Source of the DNA: a virus
Reading direction: 5' to 3' (one strand)
Virus record (IMG/VR): IMGVR_UViG_3300031920_000251
Coordinates: 1-42,816 of that record
DNA: 42,816 bases
Position numbers and translations under genes: made by a program. The notes below the pieces were generated by a model. It searched no databases and was not told the DNA's origin. It worked only from the letters and a program-made list of their open reading frames with translations. The number at the start of each line of letters is the position of its first letter. Position 1 is the stretch's first letter. This document shows positions 1-42,816 of this stretch, piece after piece.

Positions 1-187
1 TTGTTGGTATAATTGCACCTCTCTAACCTCAATGCCTTCTGGTTTTAATCTCCCAACTGGTATAACAACAGTCGGAACTTATTTTCTAGCATATTGTTGG
101 TATAGTTGCACCTCCTTAACCTCAATGCCCTCTGGCTTTAATTTACCGAGTGGGATAACAACAGTAGGTGATTATTTTCTATATCTT
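1..187 (+). repeat. 93-nt tandem repeat units (continuation of the array at 42439..42816)
   Basis: TGTTGG repeat-unit starts at 2 and 95, with a degenerate unit (TGCTGG) from 188. The period of 93 nt was counted directly. Confidence 0.85.
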
Positions 188-14276: not shown

Positions 14277-15497
14277 CTAACCTTTTATTACACACAAAGG
14301 TTTTAATTTAACTAATCTTTTAACTAAGTCTTTTTGATTTTCCATTACATCTTCAATATCTTTATAACAACTTGTCGCTTCATCCAAATCGTTCTTGTGT
14401 CTTATTCCGTGAATTATGTTTTGGTCACCTAATATCTTAATTTCTTTTTCTAAGTCTAAAGTTTTTTCTGCTTGCTTTCTTCCTAACAATCTACCAGCAC
14501 CGTGAGAGCAACTTTCAAAACTTTCTGGATTTCCTAACCCCTCCACGATATAGCTTGAAGTTCCTTGACTGCCTGGAATAATACCAATTTGTCCTTTCTT
14601 TGCCTGTGTTGCTCCTTTTCTATGAACCCATACATTTTTTCCGAAATGATTTTCTTGAGTGGCGTAGTTATGGGCTATGTTTATAAATTTGTTTGTTTCA
14701 TTCAAAACTAACGAAGGTATATATTTTTCTACAGCGTGCAAAATTCTACTCATCATCAATTTTCTATTTGCCAAAGCAAACTCAACACAATAATTCATTT
14801 CTCTGATATATAATTGTCCTTCTTCACTATCAACTGGCAAAAATGCCAATTCCCATTCTTTTGGAACTTCACTATAATATTTAGCGTTTAATTCAACTGA
14901 TAATTTATTATAGTGATTTGCAACTTTTAGTCCTAAGTTTCTTGAACCTGAATGTATCATTATCCAAATATGTCCGTCATCTCCTTTTTGAATTTCTATG
15001 AAATGATTTCCTCCTCCGAGAGTTCCGAGAGATTTTAAAGCGTTGTTATATTCTTCCTTTACAATAGAATAATAAAATTCATCAGAATCATCACATGATA
15101 CAAACTGCATTTTGCGTGGCATTAAATTATCATCTTGTTTTTCTTGATGTTTATTGAATCCGACTGGAATAACTTTTCTAATTTCACTCATTATTTTTTT
15201 AAGAGTAGCAGTATCAATTTCTGTTAAAGAAGTTTTGACGGCACACATCCCACACCCGATGTCAACTCCGACAGCGTTAGGAATTATTACATCTTTTGTT
15301 GCCATTACTGCACCAATAGGCATTCCGTAGCCGAGATGGCAATCTGGCATTATTGCTATATGTTTATGCAAAAATGGAAGTTTTGCTAGATTATCTATCT
15401 GCTCCATTGCATTTTCTTCTATGCCAGGACACCAACTATAAACTGGATTTTTAAATTGTTTAAAATTTTCCATAAAATTATTTTTTAATTTATTCAT
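14277..15497 (-). CDS. rtcB: RtcB-family RNA 3'-phosphate ligase
   Basis: Full set of RtcB signatures: MPDCHLGYGMPIG, VGVDIGCGM, GGGNHFIEIQ, IHSGSRNLG, HRKGAT, IPGSQGTSSY, SCSHGAGR. Confidence 0.93.
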   Translation of the reverse strand: MNKLKNNFMENFKQFKNPVYSWCPGIEENAMEQIDNLAKLPFLHKHIAIMPDCHLGYGMPIGAVMATKDVIIPNAVGVDIGCGMCAVKTSLTEIDTATLKKIMSEIRKVIPVGFNKHQEKQDDNLMPRKMQFVSCDDSDEFYYSIVKEEYNNALKSLGTLGGGNHFIEIQKGDDGHIWIMIHSGSRNLGLKVANHYNKLSVELNAKYYSEVPKEWELAFLPVDSEEGQLYIREMNYCVEFALANRKLMMSRILHAVEKYIPSLVLNETNKFINIAHNYATQENHFGKNVWVHRKGATQAKKGQIGIIPGSQGTSSYIVEGLGNPESFESCSHGAGRLLGRKQAEKTLDLEKEIKILGDQNIIHGIRHKNDLDEATSCYKDIEDVMENQKDLVKRLVKLKPLCVIKG

Positions 15498-19580: not shown

Positions 19581-20264
19581 TTAAATATCCATCCCATCCA
19601 TAAAAATCTCCCCATCCCATCCATCATCATGACAGGTTATTTTATAAAATTCATCTTTTTTATAAAAATATTTTTGTAATCCATCTAAAAATTTATTATA
19701 TTCTGGATATTCGCTGTCAAGTATTTCTCCTTCTTTATCGCATTTAAAAGTTGTAATAGTATATTCTGTTAAGCAACAGCGATAACTTGCTTCAATATCA
19801 TCAGAACCATCTATCTCTAATTTTTCTACATTATTTTCCCAGTTCATAAATTCATATCCTTGTTTTTTTTCAAAATCTTTCATCACTTCTAAATATCTTT
19901 TTATAAATTCTTTATGATTTTTCTTCGTCAATTGTTTCTTTAATGTGAAGTTTATCTGTATATAAACTTCCTTGCTATATTTTGTTTTGTTCTTTTTCAT
20001 AAATTTTTTAGTTTTAAGATGATAATCATTAAAAATATGAGTTCCAAAATACTTGAAATCAACATAAACTTCAACTGTGTCTTTTCCTTTTACTTTATAT
20101 TTGCTTCCAAAACTAGAAATAACTCCGACTTTTCCTATCATTGTTGGCTGCCCGACTTCATTATTCCCATTTATTACTTTTACTTTATCTTGTATCTTCA
20201 CAATAAATCTCATTATTGTTTTTATCGTATTCAGTTTTTCTCCAATAACCACCGCTGTTCCCAT
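19581..20264 (-). CDS. hypothetical protein whose 5' end is disrupted by a 94-nt duplication
   Basis: The long ORF is clear. Its first ~24 codons read a copy of the 63-nt repeat unit in the wrong frame. Internal Met at 20141 (MIGKVGV...). Confidence 0.5.
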   Translation of the reverse strand: MGTAVVIGEKLNTIKTIMRFIVKIQDKVKVINGNNEVGQPTMIGKVGVISSFGSKYKVKGKDTVEVYVDFKYFGTHIFNDYHLKTKKFMKKNKTKYSKEVYIQINFTLKKQLTKKNHKEFIKRYLEVMKDFEKKQGYEFMNWENNVEKLEIDGSDDIEASYRCCLTEYTITTFKCDKEGEILDSEYPEYNKFLDGLQKYFYKKDEFYKITCHDDGWDGEIFMDGMDI

Positions 20265-20437
20265 TTATTACTTTTACTTTATCTTGTTTTGTCATAATTA
20301 TTATATTAATATTATTTATTTTCCCAATCAACATTACTTTTACATTTTAATTGTTTCATAAATTTTTTATCCTCTGCGTTCTGTTCGTTTCAATATTAGA
20401 AATTCTTTAATTTTAGATTTAGCACTACCTCACAAGG

Positions 20438-21061
20438 TTATAAATATTTTTTATATAATCCTTTAGAATAACAAGTCCACGGATACCACCCACTATGATT
20501 ATAAATTATATGAGCCATTAAAATATTAATAGTAGGATCTTGTAATTTTTCTGTTGTTAAGTTATAAAACTTCATTCTTTGAGGTAATTCTCTTATTTGA
20601 AATAATCCTGTTGATTGATATTTAGTATTTGTATCTCCTATCGCTTTATGGTTTAATTTACTTTCACATTTAGCAATCGCAATCGCTAGTTTATAATTTT
20701 TAGGAAAAGTGTTTTTAATCAACTCTTCTACTTTTGCTCTTTCTTTAACCGTTGGCATTAGAGCAGGGAGTGCCTGCTCTGCCAAGGGTTGCACGATAGA
20801 GGCAGTCGGAACCAACTCGTCGTAGTCAACCATTTCGCCATATATTTTCTTAGATTGATATTCAGTTATAGCGTCAATGCTAGAAGCGTTAGCAATCATA
20901 ATATTATGTTTGATTTTTATGATCGCATGATAACTAGCGATTAACAATCCTATAATGACTAAGGTTGATGCAGTGAATTTTTTAAGTTTTAGTATTTTGT
21001 TTTTATTTTTGTGAAATCGCTTCAACGAAACGGAAATCTTTATTTTTTGCAGTTTAGTCAT
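20438..21061 (-). CDS. membrane-anchored transglycosylase-like (Rpf/SLT-type) cell-wall hydrolase
   Basis: N-terminal TM segment ASTLVIIGLLIASYHAII. The C-terminal motif AIAKCESKLNHKAIGDTNTKYQSTGLFQI matches the CES...GLFQI lysozyme-like signature. Confidence 0.6.
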   Translation of the reverse strand: MTKLQKIKISVSLKRFHKNKNKILKLKKFTASTLVIIGLLIASYHAIIKIKHNIMIANASSIDAITEYQSKKIYGEMVDYDELVPTASIVQPLAEQALPALMPTVKERAKVEELIKNTFPKNYKLAIAIAKCESKLNHKAIGDTNTKYQSTGLFQIRELPQRMKFYNLTTEKLQDPTINILMAHIIYNHSGWYPWTCYSKGLYKKYL

Positions 21062-21303
21062 TTTTTTTGTAATAATTCTCTATGTAATTTAATATGACAC
21101 TTTTTACATAACCAAATTATTTGAAAAGGTTTATTATAATCTGGATGATGTTTCTCAATGTTTTTATTAGAATTACACAAGGAACATTTTGTTTGTTTTT
21201 TTATATTATTATATTTTATTAAATTATTTATTTTATTTCTTACATTTCTTTTTTTTCTATTTATTTTATTCGAATAATATTTTTTATTTGTATAATAATT
21301 TTT
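21058..21303 (-). pseudogene. HNH-motif open frame with no start codon, in frame with and directly after the TAA of the repeat-protein gene
   Basis: Hand translation gives KNYYTNKKYYSNKINRKKRNVRNKINNLIKYNNIKKQTKCSLCNSNKNIEKHHPDYNKPFQIIWLCKKCHIKLHRELLQKK. It has a CxxC...HH...CxxCH...H pattern. Its TGA overlaps the ATG of 20438..21061 (ATGA). Confidence 0.45.
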
Positions 21304-21828
21304 TTATTTTTCATAAATTTTATTATTTAAATAATATTTATTATTTTTAAATTCTAAAACATTTTTTCCTTCTGTTTTTTCCCAATAACCATCGCTATCT
21401 TCATAATAAATCTCATTATTATTTTTATCGTATTTAGTTTTTCTCCAATAACCATCGCTGTTTTCACAATAAATCTCATTATTATTTTTATCGTATTTAG
21501 TTTTTCTCCAATAACCATCGCTGTTTTCACAATAAATCTCATTATTGTTTTTATCGTATTCAGTTTTTCTCCAATAACCACTGCTATCTTCACAATAAAT
21601 CTCATTATTATTTTTATCGTATTCAGTTTTTTCCCAATAACCACTGCTGTTTTCACAATAAATCTCATTATTATTTTTATCGTATTTAGTTTTTCTCCAA
21701 TAACCATCGCTGTTTTCACAATAAATCTCATTATTATTTTTATCGTATTTAGTAATTGGATATTTTTTCTCTTCTTTCTCTTTTAAATTTTCTTTATTCA
21801 TTGTTTCTTTAATTGTTTTGTTTTTCAT
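21304..21828 (-). CDS. tandem 21-aa repeat protein (YD/Rhs-like or MORN/YwqK-like beta-hairpin repeats)
   Basis: Six near-identical units (K/E)YDKNNNEIYCENSDGYWRKT. Start chosen at ATG 21828 (MKNKTIKE) because the 21834..22016 ORF ends just upstream and the longer Arg-rich extension overlaps it. Confidence 0.6.
   Translation of the reverse strand: MKNKTIKETMNKENLKEKEEKKYPITKYDKNNNEIYCENSDGYWRKTKYDKNNNEIYCENSSGYWEKTEYDKNNNEIYCEDSSGYWRKTEYDKNNNEIYCENSDGYWRKTKYDKNNNEIYCENSDGYWRKTKYDKNNNEIYYEDSDGYWEKTEGKNVLEFKNNKYYLNNKIYEK
21382..21759 (-). repeat. six tandem 63-nt units
   Basis: CCAATAACC recurs at 21382, 21445, 21508, 21571, 21634 and 21697, an exact 63-nt period. Confidence 0.9.
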
Positions 21829-21833
21829 AAATT

Positions 21834-22016
21834 TTATATTAAATTTTCTTCTAAATAAATATCTTTGTCTCTTTCGGCTCTTTCTGCGAACATTTTGTCT
21901 TCTTCTCTTTCTTCTTCTCTTTCTTCTTTTCTCTTGCCGAAAAGTAATAATTCTGTCCAAGATTGTCCAGTGAGTTCCTCTCTAGTTTTAAATTTTACTG
22001 GGTGTTTAATTTTCAT
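21834..22016 (-). CDS. hypothetical charged protein
   Basis: 60-aa ORF in operon orientation. Confidence 0.4.
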   Translation of the reverse strand: MKIKHPVKFKTREELTGQSWTELLLFGKRKEEREEEREEDKMFAERAERDKDIYLEENLI

Positions 22017-22728: not shown

Positions 22729-23310
22729 CTATTCGCTTTCCTCGCACTCCTGAATTACTAACTTTCTGAATCTTTCTAATTTTTGCATTCTATTGGTTAA
22801 TTCTATCGGCTTTATTGGGGAAGCAATTAAACAATCTTTATTGCAACCGTTGCAACGATATTTTATTCCGTCTGAATATTTTTTTAAGTATTTAGGATTT
22901 TTTTTTATAAATTCTATAAAATATTTTTTTTCTCTTCTTTTTTTTTGAAAAACTAAACAAGATTTTTTATACCAATAATCTTTTTTTAAAATTTCGTGAT
23001 ATCTTTTGTTATTTAATTTTCTTCTGTTTTCAATAAATTCGGGATTGTCTTTATTTTTATCTAAATATTTTTTTACTGTTTCGCGATGTGCTTTTTTAAA
23101 CCATTCAAAATTTTTATTTTTATCAAAAAATCTTTTTTGTGCGTTTTTTACATTTTCTTTTCTTATTGGATTTTTTAATCTTTCTTTGTCGTGGCACCTA
23201 AAACACAGACCGTTGCCTTTATGTTTATTTCTTCCTTCCTTGCTTCGTGTTCCGCAATTTTTGCAACGACTGGCTACCCACGACCATTTATTTTTTGAAA
23301 GTATAGGCAT
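22729..23310 (-). CDS. basic zinc-ribbon protein of unknown function
   Basis: CKNCG...GLCFRCH at the N-terminus and CNGCNKDC near the C-terminus. Very Lys/Arg-rich. Confidence 0.45.
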   Translation of the reverse strand: MPILSKNKWSWVASRCKNCGTRSKEGRNKHKGNGLCFRCHDKERLKNPIRKENVKNAQKRFFDKNKNFEWFKKAHRETVKKYLDKNKDNPEFIENRRKLNNKRYHEILKKDYWYKKSCLVFQKKRREKKYFIEFIKKNPKYLKKYSDGIKYRCNGCNKDCLIASPIKPIELTNRMQKLERFRKLVIQECEESE

Positions 23311-25871: not shown

Positions 25872-25878
25872 AACAAAA

Positions 25879-25965
25879 AATCAGTTATCGGAAAAGGATT
25901 AGCTCTTGCTTACTACAACAAGAAACAACATTGCTGTTGATTCAATCCTTTTCCTATAACTGATT
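25879..25965. repeat. 22-bp imperfect inverted repeat enclosing two small hairpins, immediately upstream of the primase-helicase gene
   Basis: AATCAGTTATCGGAAAAGGATT 25879..25900 versus AATCCTTTTCCTATAACTGATT 25944..25965 (one mismatch). Inner stems are CTTG/CAAG and CAAC/GTTG. Confidence 0.8.
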
Positions 25966-26039
25966 GTTATGTGTAGTAAGTTGAGCATATTATTTTTTTT
26001 AATTATTTTTAATAATAGCACAAATAAATAAAATGTCAA

Positions 26040-26400
<361 letters not shown>

Positions 26401-26436
26401 TTAATTTTTTTTCTTTTTGTTGATTTTAAAGGGTTT

Positions 26437-26605
26437 TTTAAAATAGTATCAAAAGCCTCGACTTTTTTCTTACATTACTCATAATCTCGGAAATCTCTTT
26501 TTTTGTTTTTCCTGCAAATCTTTTTTTCGCGCTGATCTCGCCATTTTTCTTATTTTGGCAAGAAACGCAAATTAAAGGTTTACCGCAGATTTTACATTTT
26601 GGCAT
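26437..26605 (-). pseudogene. frameshifted small zinc-ribbon gene (or a homopolymer sequencing error)
   Basis: ATG at 26605 gives MPKCKICGK, then a stop after 18 codons. One base fewer in the A4 run (plus-strand T4 at 26578..26581) would give MPKCKICGKPLICVSCQNKKNGEISAKKRFAGKTKKEISEIMSNVRKKSRLLILF, restoring a CxxC...CxxC ribbon. Confidence 0.4.
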
Positions 26606-26640
26606 AGTTTAATTTTTATATAAAAGGAATAATTTTATTT

Positions 26641-26680
26641 TTAATTCCAGACCATTCTCCGTTAAATGGTTTGGAATTAA
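26641..26680. other. 16-bp stem hairpin / inverted repeat
   Basis: TTAATTCCAGACCATT pairs with AATGGTTTGGAATTAA around an 8-nt loop. The single non-Watson-Crick position is G:U only in a plus-strand RNA. Confidence 0.7.
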
Positions 26681-26880
26681 CAGTCTTATCGTGAAAACTT
26701 ACTTGTTTCCCGCAATATTCAAAATAAAATACTATATACAGCCATTGAGTATAGCGGTATAGGAAGTCCATCTAGACTTCAACCTTTCTTTATACCTACA
26801 AAAGTAGGAATATTGCACCTCTGATAGAATATCAGAGATGCTAATTGCTACCTTTATTTAATTTAATTTTTTTCTTAAGT

Positions 26881-27531: not shown

Positions 27532-27891
27532 ATGCCAGAAGATACGCGATTTAAAAAAGGACAGTCAGGAAACCCAAGCGGACGCCCGAAAGACAGTTTT
27601 TCTTTGATAACATTGCTTAAACAAGAATTACAAAAATGTCCAGAAGGAGAAAATAAGAAGACTTACGCTAAAATAATGGTAAAAAAAATGATTGATGAAG
27701 CAATGAGAAAAGGAGACGACCAAAAATTAAAACTTATTTTCAATTATTGCGAAGGCTTACCAAAACAAACTGTAGACCATACTTCACAAGGAGAAAAAAT
27801 AGAAAACAAAACGCTTATTCAAATAAACAGTATGGATGAAAAATCTATAGACGATGAATTTCAAAAAAAATTAAATCAAAATGATGAATGA
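27532..27891 (+). CDS. small-terminase candidate (DUF5681-like N-terminus)
   Basis: FKKGQSGNPSGRPKD is the hallmark motif of a family commonly found just upstream of terL. The gene overlaps the terL start. Confidence 0.55.
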   Translation: MPEDTRFKKGQSGNPSGRPKDSFSLITLLKQELQKCPEGENKKTYAKIMVKKMIDEAMRKGDDQKLKLIFNYCEGLPKQTVDHTSQGEKIENKTLIQINSMDEKSIDDEFQKKLNQNDE

Positions 27892-29452
27892 TAAACTAAT
27901 AATTCCAACAAGCATTTTAGAAAATAAAAGATATAGATTAAATATTTTAAACAAGGCTGAGAATGATGTTGTTTTACAGGAAATAATAAAGAAAAAATGT
28001 TCATTAGATATAGAATTTGCTTGGGATTTGTTTTTTTGGACTTATGATGATCGCGAAACTAATCCGAATGTTCCTTATATTTTATACCCAAAACAAAGGG
28101 ATTTAATAACTGAATTAAATAATAATCTTATTTCATCAAGGCAAGGCGAGAAAGTTAATTTTATTCTTGATAAACCTCGTGCAGTTGGAGCGACTTATAC
28201 TGTAATGGCTTGGATTTTATACCATTGGTTGTTTTCGAAAGGATTTACGGCAAGAGTTGGCAGCAGAAAAGAGGATTATGTTGACAAGAGAGGAGAGAAA
28301 GACACATTATTTGTTAAGTTAGATTATATTTTAGATAGATTTCCGAATTGGTTGAAACCAAAATATCGTAGGGCATCTATGATGTTGGATAACGAAGAAA
28401 GCGGAAATACGGTCTCTGGCGAGAGTGCAAATCCTAATTTCGCGAGAGGAGGACGAAAATCAGTGATATTATTTGATGAGTTAGGATTTTGGGATTGGGC
28501 AGGAAGCAGTTGGGAGAGTGCAGGAGAGAGTTCAAATTACAGAATAGCGATGTCAACACCGCCCGATACAGGAAAAGATAGTTATTTTCATAAATTATTG
28601 ATAGGAGAAAAAGGGAGAATAAGAAAATTTAATTTTGACTGGCAAGATGTTCCCGGTAGAGATGATAAATGGTTTAAAGAAGCAAAAGAAACAAAATCAC
28701 CAGAAGAATTTGCGCGCGAAGTATTGAAAAGTTATGATGGAACGACAAAAGGAAAGGTTTACGCGAACGATATGAGGTTGGTGGAATTAAAAGAAATTGA
28801 ATATACAGGACGATTACCGCTTTATATTGCTTGGGATTTCGGACTTGATAGCGTTGCGATGGTATGGATACAGGCAGATTTATCAAATAAGAAATTCTAT
28901 GTTATAGATAGTTATATAAATTCAAATAAAGCGATTGATTTCTTTGTTCCTTTCGTGAATGGGACAATAAAATCTGGGATAGAAAAATACAATGAATATG
29001 AGTTGAATATGATAATGCGCCATAAATTATGGAGTAGGACAATAACACATTACGGAGACCCATCAGTTAAGCAAAGACATATTAGTTCAGGATTAAGTAC
29101 AAAAGATATTTTAGAGGATAAGCATAATATTTATGTTCAGAGTAAAGATTGGTTAGGCAGGAAATGGACTGATATTAGAGACATTACACGAACATTTTTC
29201 AGAGATTTAACTATAAATACTAAATTATGCGAAAGTTTTATTTCAGCGTTAAGGATGTCAAGATACCCAGAACGAGCAGAGAGAAGCCAAGCAACAAGCG
29301 AACCATTGAAGCCTATTCATAATTCAGATAGTCATTATCGTTCCGCATTTGAATTCTTTTGTGATAATATCTATGACGAGGAAGAAATTAAAATAATTAA
29401 AGAAGACAGAAATAATAACCAGTCCAACGAATTATTTATTGATGATGTGTAA
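27881..29452 (+). CDS. terL: terminase large subunit
   Basis: ATPase Walker A-like DKPRAVGATYT, Walker B VILFDELGFW, coupling motif MSTPP. Nuclease-domain acidic motifs IAWDFGLDSVAMVW, YGDPS and NSDSHYRSAFEF. Confidence 0.88.
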   Translation: MMNDKLIIPTSILENKRYRLNILNKAENDVVLQEIIKKKCSLDIEFAWDLFFWTYDDRETNPNVPYILYPKQRDLITELNNNLISSRQGEKVNFILDKPRAVGATYTVMAWILYHWLFSKGFTARVGSRKEDYVDKRGEKDTLFVKLDYILDRFPNWLKPKYRRASMMLDNEESGNTVSGESANPNFARGGRKSVILFDELGFWDWAGSSWESAGESSNYRIAMSTPPDTGKDSYFHKLLIGEKGRIRKFNFDWQDVPGRDDKWFKEAKETKSPEEFAREVLKSYDGTTKGKVYANDMRLVELKEIEYTGRLPLYIAWDFGLDSVAMVWIQADLSNKKFYVIDSYINSNKAIDFFVPFVNGTIKSGIEKYNEYELNMIMRHKLWSRTITHYGDPSVKQRHISSGLSTKDILEDKHNIYVQSKDWLGRKWTDIRDITRTFFRDLTINTKLCESFISALRMSRYPERAERSQATSEPLKPIHNSDSHYRSAFEFFCDNIYDEEEIKIIKEDRNNNQSNELFIDDV

Positions 29453-42102: not shown

Positions 42103-42816
42103 ATGGATTACGATTTCATAACAACTTGTAATTGGACTTCTACTGGAACTTTTACTTTAAGAGCATATCGTGGAAGTGGAACTGATGTAGTTACTACACA
42201 TTACGCTTCTATATTCTATAGAAAAGTTGGAGATGCAGAGTGGACTGCACTTAATGCCAGCGGACAACTTGTAATTGACGAGATTGGAGAATGGGAGATA
42301 GCGAATGATTGGAATAAATCTGGTAATGATTGTTTAACTCATTCTTATTATGGAATTACTGCAATAAATAGTTGCACAGATGTCTATTTTGACGAAGTTT
42401 CTCTTGGAACAACAGTAGGTGATAATTTTCTATCTTATTGTTGGTATAATTGCACCTCTCTAACCTCAATGCCTTCTGGTTTTAATCTCCCAACTGGTAT
42501 AACAACAGTCGGAACTTATTTTCTAGCATATTGTTGGCGTAGTTGCACATCTCTAACCTCAATGCCTTCTGGTTTCAATCTACCAAGCGGTATAACAACA
42601 GTCGGAACTTATTTTCTAGCATATTGTTGGCGTAGTTGCACATCCCTAACCTCAATGCCTTCTGGTTTTAACTTACCGAGCGGAATAACCACAGTTGGAA
42701 ATAGTTTTCTTAATGCTTGTTGGTATAATTGCACCTCTCTAACCTCAATGCCTTCTGGTTTTAATCTCCCAACTGGTATAACAACAGTCGGAACTTATTT
42801 TCTAGCATATTGTTGG
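42103..42816 (+). CDS. BspA-like LRR protein, N-terminal part (continues at base 2 / 101 of the window)
   Basis: ATG at 42103. No stop through the window end (238 codons translated by hand). A unique ~110-aa N-terminal domain is followed by 31-aa repeats. It is absent from the ORF track because it has no in-window stop. Confidence 0.7.
   Translation, partial: MDYDFITTCNWTSTGTFTLRAYRGSGTDVVTTHYASIFYRKVGDAEWTALNASGQLVIDEIGEWEIANDWNKSGNDCLTHSYYGITAINSCTDVYFDEVSLGTTVGDNFLSYCWYNCTSLTSMPSGFNLPTGITTVGTYFLAYCWRSCTSLTSMPSGFNLPSGITTVGTYFLAYCWRSCTSLTSMPSGFNLPSGITTVGNSFLNACWYNCTSLTSMPSGFNLPTGITTVGTYFLAYCW
42439..42816 (+). repeat. 93-nt tandem repeat array (four units here, continued at the window start)
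   Basis: TGTTGG at 42439, 42532, 42625 and 42718. The units are nearly identical at the nucleotide level. Confidence 0.9.
42717..42816. repeat. 100-nt terminal overlap with bases 1..100 (circular-contig closure or terminal redundancy)
   Basis: Exact identity checked base by base. 42438..42537 is also an identical copy, so the overlap lies inside the repeat array. Confidence 0.9.

What the first reader, a model, noticed from the sequence alone, without database searches (positions are those of the whole stretch)
21058..21828. Tandem 21-aa repeat protein followed in frame, after a single TAA, by a start-less HNH-motif ORF that is ATGA-coupled to a membrane-anchored transglycosylase
Gene 21304..21828 encodes six near-identical YDKNNNEIYCENSDGYWRKT units (63-nt period). 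These resemble YD/Rhs or MORN/YwqK-type repeats, both associated with polymorphic toxin/immunity systems. Directly after its TAA (21306..21304) the same frame stays open for 81 more codons with no ATG, GTG or usable TTG. That stretch continues the N/K/Y-rich composition, then gives a clean CxxC...HH...CxxCH...H HNH nuclease motif. Its TGA stop overlaps the ATG of the TM-anchored CES...GLFQI transglycosylase gene. A repeat domain followed by a C-terminal HNH is the classic Rhs-type toxin architecture. This may therefore be a readthrough-dependent or recently inactivated toxin-like fusion inside a phage early operon, or an HNH gene with a non-canonical start.
Basis: partly seen in the sequence, partly recalled or inferred. 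Interest (0 to 1): 0.7.

Follow-up and report, generated by a model that had tools for sequence, protein, structure and literature searches.

The report
Truncated HNH remnant behind YD-repeat gene
In a complete 42.7-kb phage genome, a small stand-alone protein built of six YD-type repeats ends at its normal stop. It is followed, in frame only by chance, by the start-less back half of an HNH nuclease gene, which is ordinary gene decay and not a read-through Rhs-like toxin.

Summary
The sequence features are all real. A 63-nt x 6.0 tandem array lies in a 174-aa gene. Its TAA is followed by 81 open codons with an intact HNH motif and no usable start. The HNH TGA overlaps the ATG of a membrane-anchored SLT transglycosylase gene.

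The Rhs-toxin/read-through interpretation is not supported.
- The repeats are YD-type by profile and by fold. However, the protein belongs to a large, mostly phage-borne family of small stand-alone proteins.
- Its two closest relatives share the same C-terminal tail and stop a few codons further on. None of 134 repeat ORFs in viral contigs carries an HNH.
- The HNH ORF matches a phage endonuclease family (PHROG 2340, E=2e-19). About 70 relatives are independent genes with their own start. The closest (146 aa, 69% identity) has about 70 more N-terminal residues.
- DNA alignments place the junction between repeat-gene and HNH-gene sequence in an A/T-only tract (about 21287-21314).
- Relatives of the transglycosylase have no HNH upstream.

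Most likely this is a recent 5'-truncated HNH remnant. A minority possibility remains. An ATG at 21314 lies 1 nt out of frame, just upstream of an A7 run, and slippage there could give an 85-aa nuclease.

The parts
21304..21828 (-). Stand-alone gene for a 174-aa YD-type repeat protein: N-terminal helix, six 21-aa beta-hairpin repeats, and the conserved tail EGKNVLEFKNNKYYLNNKIYEK
   Evidence: ORF and translation. At least 796 homologues, typically about 125 aa. The closest, P0001 and P0002, share the N-terminus and the tail and stop a few codons further on. AlphaFold pLDDT is 90.6 with 16 beta strands. Foldseek top hits are Rhs/YD shells.
21376..21753 (-). 63-nt x 6.0 tandem array (93% matches) that encodes the YD units. 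It is longer and more uniform than in relatives (x4.0 at 84%, x3.0 at 82%).
   Evidence: Tandem Repeats Finder; the repeat finder families D1 and D2.
21304..21306 (-). TAA stop of the repeat gene. It lies in frame with the HNH remnant that follows.
   Evidence: Relatives stop 3 codons further on in a tail that aligns at the DNA level. The Logan contig has the same sequence.
21287..21314 (-). A/T-only junction zone. It contains an ATG (21314-21312), 1 nt out of frame with the HNH, and an A7 run (21299-21305). Homology to the 3' end of the repeat gene ends here and homology to the HNH gene begins here.
   Evidence: DNA alignments to L003/L004 and to L005. The start-context score of ATG 21314 is 13.6, the 99.6th percentile of all ATGs in the window.
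21261..21314 (-). 17-codon ORF MKNKKIIIQIKNIIRIK* that opens at ATG 21314. One extra A in the A7 run, or a -1 slip there, would join it to the HNH frame and give an 85-aa product.
   Evidence: Translation; reading of the sequence; the 85-aa product matches PHROG 2340 over residues 7-81.
21058..21303 (-). 5'-truncated HNH endonuclease remnant: 81 codons plus TGA, catalytic core and zinc ligands intact, no start codon
   Evidence: PHROG 2340 E=2.2e-19, aligned to profile positions 90-163 of 171. 18,751 homologues. The best, P0121 (146 aa, 69% identity), aligns query residues 2-75 to its residues 72-143. dN/dS is 0.29 against L005. Invariant residues are kept.
20438..21061 (-). Membrane-anchored SLT-type lytic transglycosylase gene. 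Its ATG overlaps the TGA of the HNH remnant (ATGA).
   Evidence: Pfam SLT_3 at 38.3 bits (cut-off 27) and SLT at 27.3 bits (cut-off 21.3). Hydrophobic segment at residues 30-48. Relatives P0272 and P0273 have no HNH upstream.

Best explanation
Three separate things lie side by side on the minus strand of the replication/early module of a complete, circular 42.7-kb phage genome.

1. A stand-alone 174-aa protein. It has a short helix followed by six nearly identical 21-aa YD-type beta-hairpin repeats that form one open beta sheet. It belongs to a large, uncharacterised, mostly phage-borne family, and its array has recently expanded (6 units against 3-4 in its closest relatives). Its TAA lies at the family's normal C-terminal end. 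It is not a nonsense mutation inside a longer gene.

2. The 3' part of a phage HNH endonuclease gene. This gene lost its own start and about 65-70 N-terminal codons (inferred). The loss came from a deletion or illegitimate recombination in an A/T-only tract, which joined the gene to the end of the repeat gene. That it is in frame with the repeat gene is coincidence (a 1-in-3 chance). The event is recent, because the 81 codons and all catalytic residues are still intact. The remnant is most probably not translated, or only in traces (inferred).

3. An SLT transglycosylase gene, which starts at its own ATG. The ATGA overlap is a by-product of the HNH gene sitting immediately upstream. It is not a conserved coupling.
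For: Repeat gene is complete and stands alone:
- P0001 (L003) and P0002 (L004) share the N-terminus and the tail ..LEFKDGKYFLNEKLMKKLIN*. Each is followed 10 nt later by an unrelated small gene.
- The DNA alignment runs through the tail as far as ATGAAAAA.
- 0 of 134 repeat ORFs in 74 viral loci carry or precede an HNH motif.

HNH is truncated:
- It matches only positions 90-163 of the 171-position PHROG 2340 profile.
- The best homologue, P0121, is an independent 146-aa gene with its own ATG after a 128-nt spacer.
- In about 70 uncut metagenomic loci every homologue has a start within a few codons of the upstream stop. The first Cys lies typically 80-130 residues from that start. In the window there are 39 start-less codons before the first Cys.
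- No significant remnant of the missing N-terminus exists elsewhere in the window.

HNH is a variable insert:
- The transglycosylase relatives L087 (63% identity, syntenic downstream) and L088 (55%) carry other genes upstream.

The sequence is real:
- The Logan contig is identical.
- Most of the 89 homopolymer runs of 7 or more bases lie inside intact ORFs.

No recoding signals:
- No suppressor tRNA.
- The standard code fits.
- There is no RNA structure downstream of the A7 run (minimum free energy -1.3 kcal/mol, z=0.77).

This neighbourhood is scarred by illegitimate recombination:
- A solo repeat unit with a 30-nt duplication disrupts another gene 1.2 kb away. L163 holds an uninterrupted homologue of that gene.
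Against: - The remnant is in very good condition. It has 81 open codons (7 of 200,000 shuffles), all invariant residues and dN/dS of 0.29 against its closest relative. Either the truncation is very recent or the ORF is still under selection.
- An ATG with a top-percentile start context lies 1 nt out of frame just upstream of an A7 run. One more A would give an 85-aa ORF, within the size range of the shortest family members (72-98 aa).
- The junction lies in low-complexity A/T sequence, so its position is known only to about 25 nt.
- No relative carrying the same junction was found.
- No read-level or expression data were available.
Confidence: 0.7

Rival explanations
1. The HNH ORF is still expressed as an 85-aa minimal nuclease. 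Ribosomes start at ATG 21314, a codon inherited from the tail of the repeat gene. They reach the HNH frame either by a -1 slip of tRNA-Lys or polymerase slippage on the A7 run, or the A7/A8 tract acts as a heritable on/off switch. Translation would then end at the TGA that overlaps the transglycosylase ATG, which would couple the two genes.
For: - ATG 21314 scores 13.6 on the window's own start-context matrix, against 7.3 +/- 5.2 for training genes, and ranks at the 99.6th percentile.
- The shifted product MKNKKNYYTNKKYY... aligns with P0121 from NYY onward.
- Family members of 72-98 aa exist.
- The ORF and the catalytic residues are intact.
- Lysine A-runs are known slippery sequences (established knowledge).
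Against: - The ATG is homologous to an internal Met codon of the repeat-protein tail in L003/L004, so its presence needs no HNH-related explanation.
- The whole region is A/T-rich, which inflates start-context scores.
- There is no canonical X XXY YYZ heptamer in the ATG frame and no downstream structure.
- A7 is short for efficient transcriptional slippage.
- No relative conserves this arrangement.
Confidence: 0.13
2. The A7 run is a sequencing or assembly indel error. The true genome has an intact 85-aa HNH gene that starts at ATG 21314.
For: One extra A restores a complete ORF with a good start.
Against: - An independently built Logan contig from the same environment has the same A7.
- Most of the 89 long homopolymers in the contig lie inside intact ORFs, including an A10 in a 941-aa ORF. 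There is no general homopolymer problem.
- The two assemblies may share reads, so this argument is not fully independent.
Confidence: 0.06
3. First reader's hypothesis. The repeat gene and the HNH ORF form one Rhs-like toxin, made either by read-through of the TAA or as a fusion that a nonsense mutation split only recently.
For: - The two ORFs are in the same frame and separated by a single TAA.
- The repeats are YD-type.
- HNH domains do occur as Rhs toxin tips (established knowledge).
Against: - The TAA lies at the family's normal C-terminal end.
- No fusion occurs among 134 viral repeat ORFs.
- The HNH belongs to a phage family of independent genes and is missing its N-terminal half.
- There is no Rhs core motif (DPxG), no shell-sized repeat region and no trafficking domain.
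- There is no suppressor tRNA, and UAA is the least leaky stop codon (established knowledge).
Confidence: 0.02
4. After terminating at the TAA, ribosomes re-initiate on a non-canonical codon in the HNH frame (for example ATA) and produce a shorter HNH.
For: - There is no intergenic gap.
- The sequence is an unstructured A-rich RNA.
- ATA codons are visible in frame in the sequence.
Against: - There is no ATG, GTG or usable TTG in frame.
- ATA starts are very rare (established knowledge).
- There is no comparative support.
Confidence: 0.04

Closest known systems
Rhs / YD-repeat proteins (T6SS Rhs effectors such as RhsA, Tse15 and RhsP; Tc-toxin BC components; teneurins)
   Same: - Repeat period of 21 aa with a YD-x-x-(N/G)-N-x-I signature.
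- The family profile hits only Rhs proteins among PDB sequences.
- The predicted beta-hairpin sheet superposes on segments of Rhs shells (Foldseek E=1.4e-8, query-normalised TM-score 0.54-0.64).
   Different: - Only six repeats (174 aa), which form an open sheet and not a closed cocoon of about 1000 aa.
- No Rhs core or autoprotease motif, no N-terminal plug or trafficking domain, and no encapsulated toxin.
- Below the Pfam and TIGRFAM YD-repeat thresholds.
- Mostly phage-borne, small, and often present in several copies per phage.
Phage HNH endonucleases of PHROG 2340 (tblastn also matches ORFs annotated 'endonuclease' or 'hypothetical protein' in phage K-like Staphylococcus phages)
   Same: - Same CxxC...HH...CxxCH...H core with all invariant residues.
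- 69% identity to the metagenomic homologue P0121.
- Predicted helix, zinc knuckle, beta-hairpin and helix topology.
   Different: - Lacks a start codon and the basic, Tyr-rich N-terminal region of about 65-110 aa found in its closest relatives.
- Pfam HNH models do not reach threshold (HNH_5 E=0.075).
- Foldseek matches to HNH nucleases are not significant.
Degenerating free-standing homing-endonuclease genes in phage genomes (the invasion, decay and loss cycle)
   Same: - Sporadic presence: absent upstream of the transglycosylase in L087 and L088.
- High nucleotide identity (82%) to a copy in an unrelated sample.
- Truncation with an otherwise intact core.
   Different: - Homing activity, a target site and mobility were not shown.
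- The missing part is the 5' end and not the catalytic domain.
Programmed -1 frameshift or slippage sites on A-runs (dnaX A AAA AAG, IS elements)
   Same: A run of seven A within Lys codons lies between an upstream ATG frame and the -1 frame that encodes the enzyme.
   Different: - No canonical heptamer in the zero frame.
- No stimulatory hairpin or pseudoknot.
- No conservation in relatives.

Membership tests
Rhs / YD-repeat polymorphic toxin | YD-type beta-hairpin repeats | tested here: met
   The family profile A6 hits Tse15, RhsP, Tse5 and RhsA (E=6e-4 to 3.4e-3). Foldseek top 34 hits are Rhs, Tc-BC and teneurin shells. The window protein itself has no Pfam RHS_repeat hit at E<=1. Relatives with NGN-type units reach only sub-threshold scores.
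Rhs / YD-repeat polymorphic toxin | Closed shell built from many repeats (about 700-1000 aa) | tested here: not met
   Six units in a 174-aa protein. The model is a single open sheet of 16 strands.
Rhs / YD-repeat polymorphic toxin | Rhs core with the C-terminal autoprotease motif (PxxxxDPxGL / DPxG...DPxG) before the toxin | tested here: not met
   No DPxG motif anywhere in the stop-joined 256-aa translation.
Rhs / YD-repeat polymorphic toxin | Toxin domain encoded in the same ORF, C-terminal to the repeats | tested here: not met
   A TAA at the family's normal C-terminal end separates the two. 0 of 134 repeat ORFs in viral loci include an HNH motif.
Rhs / YD-repeat polymorphic toxin | N-terminal secretion or trafficking domain, and a cognate immunity gene downstream | tested here: not met
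   No Pfam domain at the N-terminus. The downstream gene is an SLT transglycosylase.
MORN_2 / YwqK repeat proteins | Match to Pfam MORN_2 (PF07661) | tested here: not met
   No hit at E<=1 for the repeat protein or for the joined translation.
HNH (beta-beta-alpha-metal) endonuclease, phage family PHROG 2340 | Sequence match to the family | tested here: met
   PHROG 2340 E=2.2e-19. 18,751 homologues at E<=0.001 and 279 at E<=1e-10.
HNH (beta-beta-alpha-metal) endonuclease, phage family PHROG 2340 | Zinc-binding Cys pairs and the catalytic His/Asp residues | tested here: met
   All columns invariant across 13 family members (C44, C47, H56, H57, D59, Y60, P63, W68, C70, H74) are present in the window sequence.
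HNH (beta-beta-alpha-metal) endonuclease, phage family PHROG 2340 | Complete gene with its own start codon | tested here: not met
   There is no ATG or GTG in frame, and the only TTG lies inside the CxxC. All uncut homologues have a start.
HNH (beta-beta-alpha-metal) endonuclease, phage family PHROG 2340 | Beta-beta-alpha-metal fold | tested here: inconclusive
   The AlphaFold model (pLDDT 83.5) has the order helix, beta-hairpin, helix. Foldseek's best hits are HNH nucleases (T5 SciA, Cap5) but with E>=1.
Programmed -1 ribosomal frameshift site | Slippery heptamer X XXY YYZ in the zero frame | tested here: inconclusive
   The ATG frame reads AAU AAA AAA AUU. A single tRNA-Lys slip on the A7 run is possible, but no canonical heptamer is present (reading of the sequence).
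Programmed -1 ribosomal frameshift site | Downstream stimulatory RNA structure | tested here: not met
   Minimum free energy -1.29 kcal/mol, z=0.77, and 149 of 200 shuffles fold at least as well.
Programmed -1 ribosomal frameshift site | Conservation of the two-frame arrangement in relatives | not testable with these tools
   No relative with the same junction was found in the phage records, IMG/VR, metagenome contigs or protein collections.
SLT lytic transglycosylase (the downstream gene) | Pfam SLT/SLT_3 above the gathering score, with the catalytic Glu in the ES motif | tested here: met
   SLT_3 at 38.3 bits (cut-off 27) and SLT at 27.3 bits (cut-off 21.3). The CES and GLFQI motifs are read directly in the translation.

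The most novel reading that the evidence does not exclude
The A7 tract at the junction is a working recoding or phase-variable switch. A start codon inherited from the tail of the upstream YD-repeat gene, plus a -1 slip (or A7/A8 length variation in the phage population), would produce small or switchable amounts of an 85-aa minimal HNH nuclease. Its translation would be coupled by ATGA to the transglycosylase. A separate question is whether the 63-nt YD unit spreads within the genome by template switching. A solo copy with a 30-nt duplication sits in another gene 1.2 kb away.
Probability: 0.1. Interest if true: 0.5.

Novelty: new member of a known kind. Interest (0 to 1): 0.25.

Why it matters
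As first proposed, a stop-codon read-through Rhs-like nuclease toxin in a phage would have been remarkable. The evidence says it is not that. What remains has modest value in three respects.
- It is a clean example of how an in-frame 'fusion' can arise by chance. Microhomology-mediated deletion clipped a mobile nuclease gene and left it behind another gene.
- It points to a large, uncharacterised, mostly phage-borne family of miniature YD-repeat proteins. Their function is unknown, and they are often present in several copies per phage and sometimes fused to DUF7666.
- It warns annotators not to join ORFs across stops on motif resemblance alone.

Tried and rejected
Searches that found nothing useful:
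- Megablast of 4.4 kb against the phage records: no match.
- IMG/VR scans with the transglycosylase (no relative) and with the HNH (one distant locus).
- Word-index protein search with the 81-aa HNH: nothing.
- Exact look-ups of the repeat protein and of the 227-aa ORF: not on record.
- Literature on DUF7666: none.

Hypotheses tested and rejected:
- Alternative genetic codes (TGA, TAG or TAA read as sense). Real genes end mostly in TAA and the standard code gives long ORFs.
- Suppressor tRNA, or a group I intron or other RNA family. None found.
- An ancestral HNH N-terminus hidden in the tail of the repeat gene. With composition filters off, tblastn extends the P0121 alignment across the TAA. 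The N-terminal 72 residues alone give nothing significant there (E=0.08-1). The tail also aligns at the DNA level to repeat-gene relatives that have no HNH.
- ATG 21314 as the counterpart of P0121's Arg codon. The L003/L004 alignment shows instead that it derives from the Met codon of the repeat-gene tail.
- Conserved HNH-to-transglycosylase synteny. L005 and L008 have an N-terminally hydrophobic protein after the HNH, but it shows no detectable similarity to the window's SLT protein and no Pfam hit.

Inconclusive:
- The PDB sequence search and Foldseek for the HNH gave no significant hit.
Full report
**Setting**

The window is a whole contig. Its transglycosylase protein is on record from a contig of exactly 42,816 nt, and the first and last 100 nt are identical, so the assembly is circular and the genome is 42,716 bp.

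It is a phage genome. The large terminase subunit is at 27881-29452. The minus-strand block around the finding carries replication and repair genes: a D5-type primase/helicase, a DnaG-type CHC2 zinc finger protein, a PD-(D/E)XK nuclease, an SNF2-type helicase and RtcB.

G+C content is 31%. The standard genetic code fits, with TAA the commonest stop. There are no tRNA genes and no Rfam matches.

A Logan contig from run SRR1971621 is 100% identical over 1212 nt across the critical region. That run is a Haakon Mosby mud volcano metagenome according to PMC9012536.

**Checking the observation**

- The repeat gene runs from ATG 21828 to TAA 21304 (174 aa).
- Tandem Repeats Finder gives a 63-nt period, 6.0 copies and 93% matches at 21376-21753. 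The six 21-aa units differ at only a few positions.
- After the TAA the same frame stays open for 81 codons to TGA 21058. Only 7 of 200,000 shuffles do that, and the other two frames carry 7 and 16 stops.
- No ATG or GTG lies in that frame. The only TTG (21180) is inside the first CxxC.
- The TGA overlaps ATG 21061 of a 207-aa protein. That protein has one N-terminal hydrophobic segment and SLT_3/SLT domains.

**The repeat protein**

Pfam gives no RHS_repeat or MORN_2 hit for the window protein. The family search nevertheless found at least 796 homologues, typically about 125 aa, some with an N-terminal DUF7666 domain.

A profile of 52 members hits only Rhs proteins among PDB sequences: Tse15, RhsP, Tse5 and RhsA, with E=6e-4 to 3e-3. 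The AlphaFold model (pLDDT 90.6) is one helix followed by a 16-strand sheet of hairpins. Its top 34 Foldseek hits are Rhs, Tc-BC and teneurin YD shells, with E down to 1.4e-8.

However, six units cannot close a shell, and there is no DPxG core motif.

The family is common in viral contigs. A scan found 264 matching stretches in IMG/VR, of which the best 74 loci were kept. Several phages carry several copies, and the median ORF is 147 aa. It is rare in cellular genomes, with 8 loci in scattered phyla.

**Is the TAA a break in a longer gene?**

No. The two closest relatives are P0001 (135 aa, L003) and P0002 (114 aa, L004). They share the N-terminus (..KQYPI.KYDKNNNEIY) and the C-terminal tail. 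Their tail reads DGENTLEFKDGKYFLNEKLMKKLIN*, against EGKNVLEFKNNKYYLNNKIYEK* in the window.

Each relative is followed 10 nt later by an unrelated small gene. The DNA alignment runs through the tail as far as ATGAAAAA.

None of the 134 repeat ORFs in the viral loci contains an HNH motif or has one just downstream.

The relatives have 4.0 and 3.0 units at 84% and 82% identity. The window's 6.0 units at 93% therefore look like a recent expansion.

**The HNH ORF**

It matches PHROG 2340 'endonuclease' at E=2.2e-19, but only profile positions 90-163 of 171. Pfam HNH_5 is sub-threshold.

An exhaustive search found 18,751 homologues. The best, P0121, is 146 aa and 69% identical, and it aligns from its residue 72 onward. 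In its contig (L005) it is an independent gene with its own ATG after a 128-nt spacer.

Over 60 codons the two copies are 82% identical at the nucleotide level, with dN/dS of 0.29.

In about 70 uncut metagenomic loci every homologue has a start codon within a few codons of the upstream stop. The first Cys lies usually 80-130 residues from that start, and in a minority 25-65 residues. The window has 39 start-less codons before the first Cys.

All residues that are invariant in the family are present. The AlphaFold model has the expected helix, hairpin, helix order, though Foldseek gives nothing significant.

No significant trace of the missing N-terminal part exists elsewhere in the window.

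**The junction**

Homology to the 3' end of the repeat gene (L003/L004) is strong up to ATGAAAAA, about 21314-21307. Homology to the HNH gene (L005) is strong from AATTATTAT / ATAAAAAATATT onward, about 21300-21287. Between these points lies an A/T-only tract that contains the TAA and an A7 run (21299-21305).

I therefore infer a deletion or illegitimate recombination at A-rich microhomology. It removed the HNH start and about 65-70 codons, and it left the remainder in frame with the repeat gene by chance.

Two relatives of the transglycosylase (63% and 55% identity) have other genes upstream and no HNH. One of them is syntenic downstream. The HNH is therefore a variable insert and not part of a conserved operon.

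**Could the remnant still be expressed?**

An ATG at 21314-21312 lies 1 nt out of frame with the HNH. Its start context scores 13.6 on a matrix trained on 38 genes of this genome, which is the 99.6th percentile of all ATGs in the window. It opens a 17-codon ORF.

One extra A in the A7 run, or a -1 slip there, would give MKNKKNYYTNKKYY..., an 85-aa protein. That is within the range of the shortest family members, 72-98 aa.

Four points argue against this:
- The ATG corresponds to an internal Met codon of the repeat-protein tail in L003/L004.
- The region's A/T richness inflates context scores.
- There is no canonical slippery heptamer and no downstream RNA structure.
- No relative has the same arrangement.

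A sequencing error is unlikely. The Logan contig agrees, and most of the 89 long homopolymers lie inside intact ORFs. I could not inspect reads.

**A second scar nearby**

A seventh, solo repeat unit (64 nt, 20194-20257) is flanked by a perfect 30-nt duplication (20164-20193 and 20258-20287). Together they form a 94-nt insertion in a small gene that starts at ATG 20295, and they shift its frame.

A viral contig (L163) encodes the uninterrupted homologue at 78% identity. The left junction is confirmed by the Logan contig. The right junction is not independently confirmed.

Microhomologies (GAA and AAGATA) at the two switch points suggest template switching from the array 1.2 kb upstream. This supports the view that this neighbourhood has undergone recent illegitimate recombination.

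**Verdict**

The Rhs-toxin/read-through interpretation is not supported, although the YD nature of the repeats is.

The best explanation, at confidence 0.7, is a stand-alone YD mini-protein gene followed by a recently 5'-truncated HNH remnant. Residual expression through the A7 tract is a minority alternative at about 0.13.

Noticed in passing
window 20164-20295 (minus strand): A solo 64-nt copy of the YD repeat unit (20194-20257) is flanked by a perfect 30-nt direct duplication. This 94-nt insertion shifts the frame of a small gene (MTKQDKVKVINGN|NEVGQPT...). An uninterrupted homologue exists in L163 at 1983-2207 (78% identity). Microhomologies at both switch points suggest template switching from the array 1.2 kb upstream. 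The right junction is not independently confirmed and could reflect a population variant or an assembly path.
   Followed up: partly
window 1-100 and 42717-42816: The first and last 100 nt are identical, so the contig is a circularly closed assembly of a 42,716-bp phage genome.
   Followed up: partly
window 14277-15497 (minus strand): The phage encodes an RtcB RNA ligase (Pfam E=1.7e-114). It lies next to an SNF2-type helicase and close to a PD-(D/E)XK nuclease. It may serve tRNA or RNA repair against host anticodon nucleases.
   Followed up: no
window, all gene starts (for example 21828, 22016, 19455): Gene starts share an A/T-rich context (AAAATTT ATG AAA) and have no Shine-Dalgarno motif. 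This suggests a host that does not rely on Shine-Dalgarno pairing. The host was not identified.
   Followed up: partly
window 25872-26880: About 1 kb has no ORF of 70 aa or more and several T-runs of 7-8 bases. It lies just past the 5' end of the minus-strand primase/helicase gene, about 650 nt before the plus-strand genes that lead to the terminase. It may be a regulatory or origin region.
   Followed up: no
window 22729-23310 (minus strand): A 193-aa protein rich in Lys/Arg has several CxxC pairs and many homopolymer runs in its gene. It matches no family. Its basic, Tyr-rich stretches loosely resemble the N-terminal regions of the HNH family.
   Followed up: no
loci L089-L162 (IMG/VR): YD mini-repeat genes often occur in several copies per phage contig (for example three loci each in 3300032245_001763, 3300022821_000013 and 3300021247_000425). 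They range from 70 to 998 aa, with up to 24 repeat motifs. Some metagenomic members carry an N-terminal DUF7666 domain.
   Followed up: partly
L163 1266-1736 and L004 3-218: Other, unrelated HNH-type endonuclease genes sit near the homologous small genes in related contigs. This fits frequent turnover of nuclease genes in these early regions.
   Followed up: no
window 21898-21932 (minus strand, in the 60-aa ORF 21834-22016): A 12-nt x 2.9 repeat encodes a run of Glu/Arg (EEREEEREE) in the small gene just upstream of the repeat gene.
   Followed up: no
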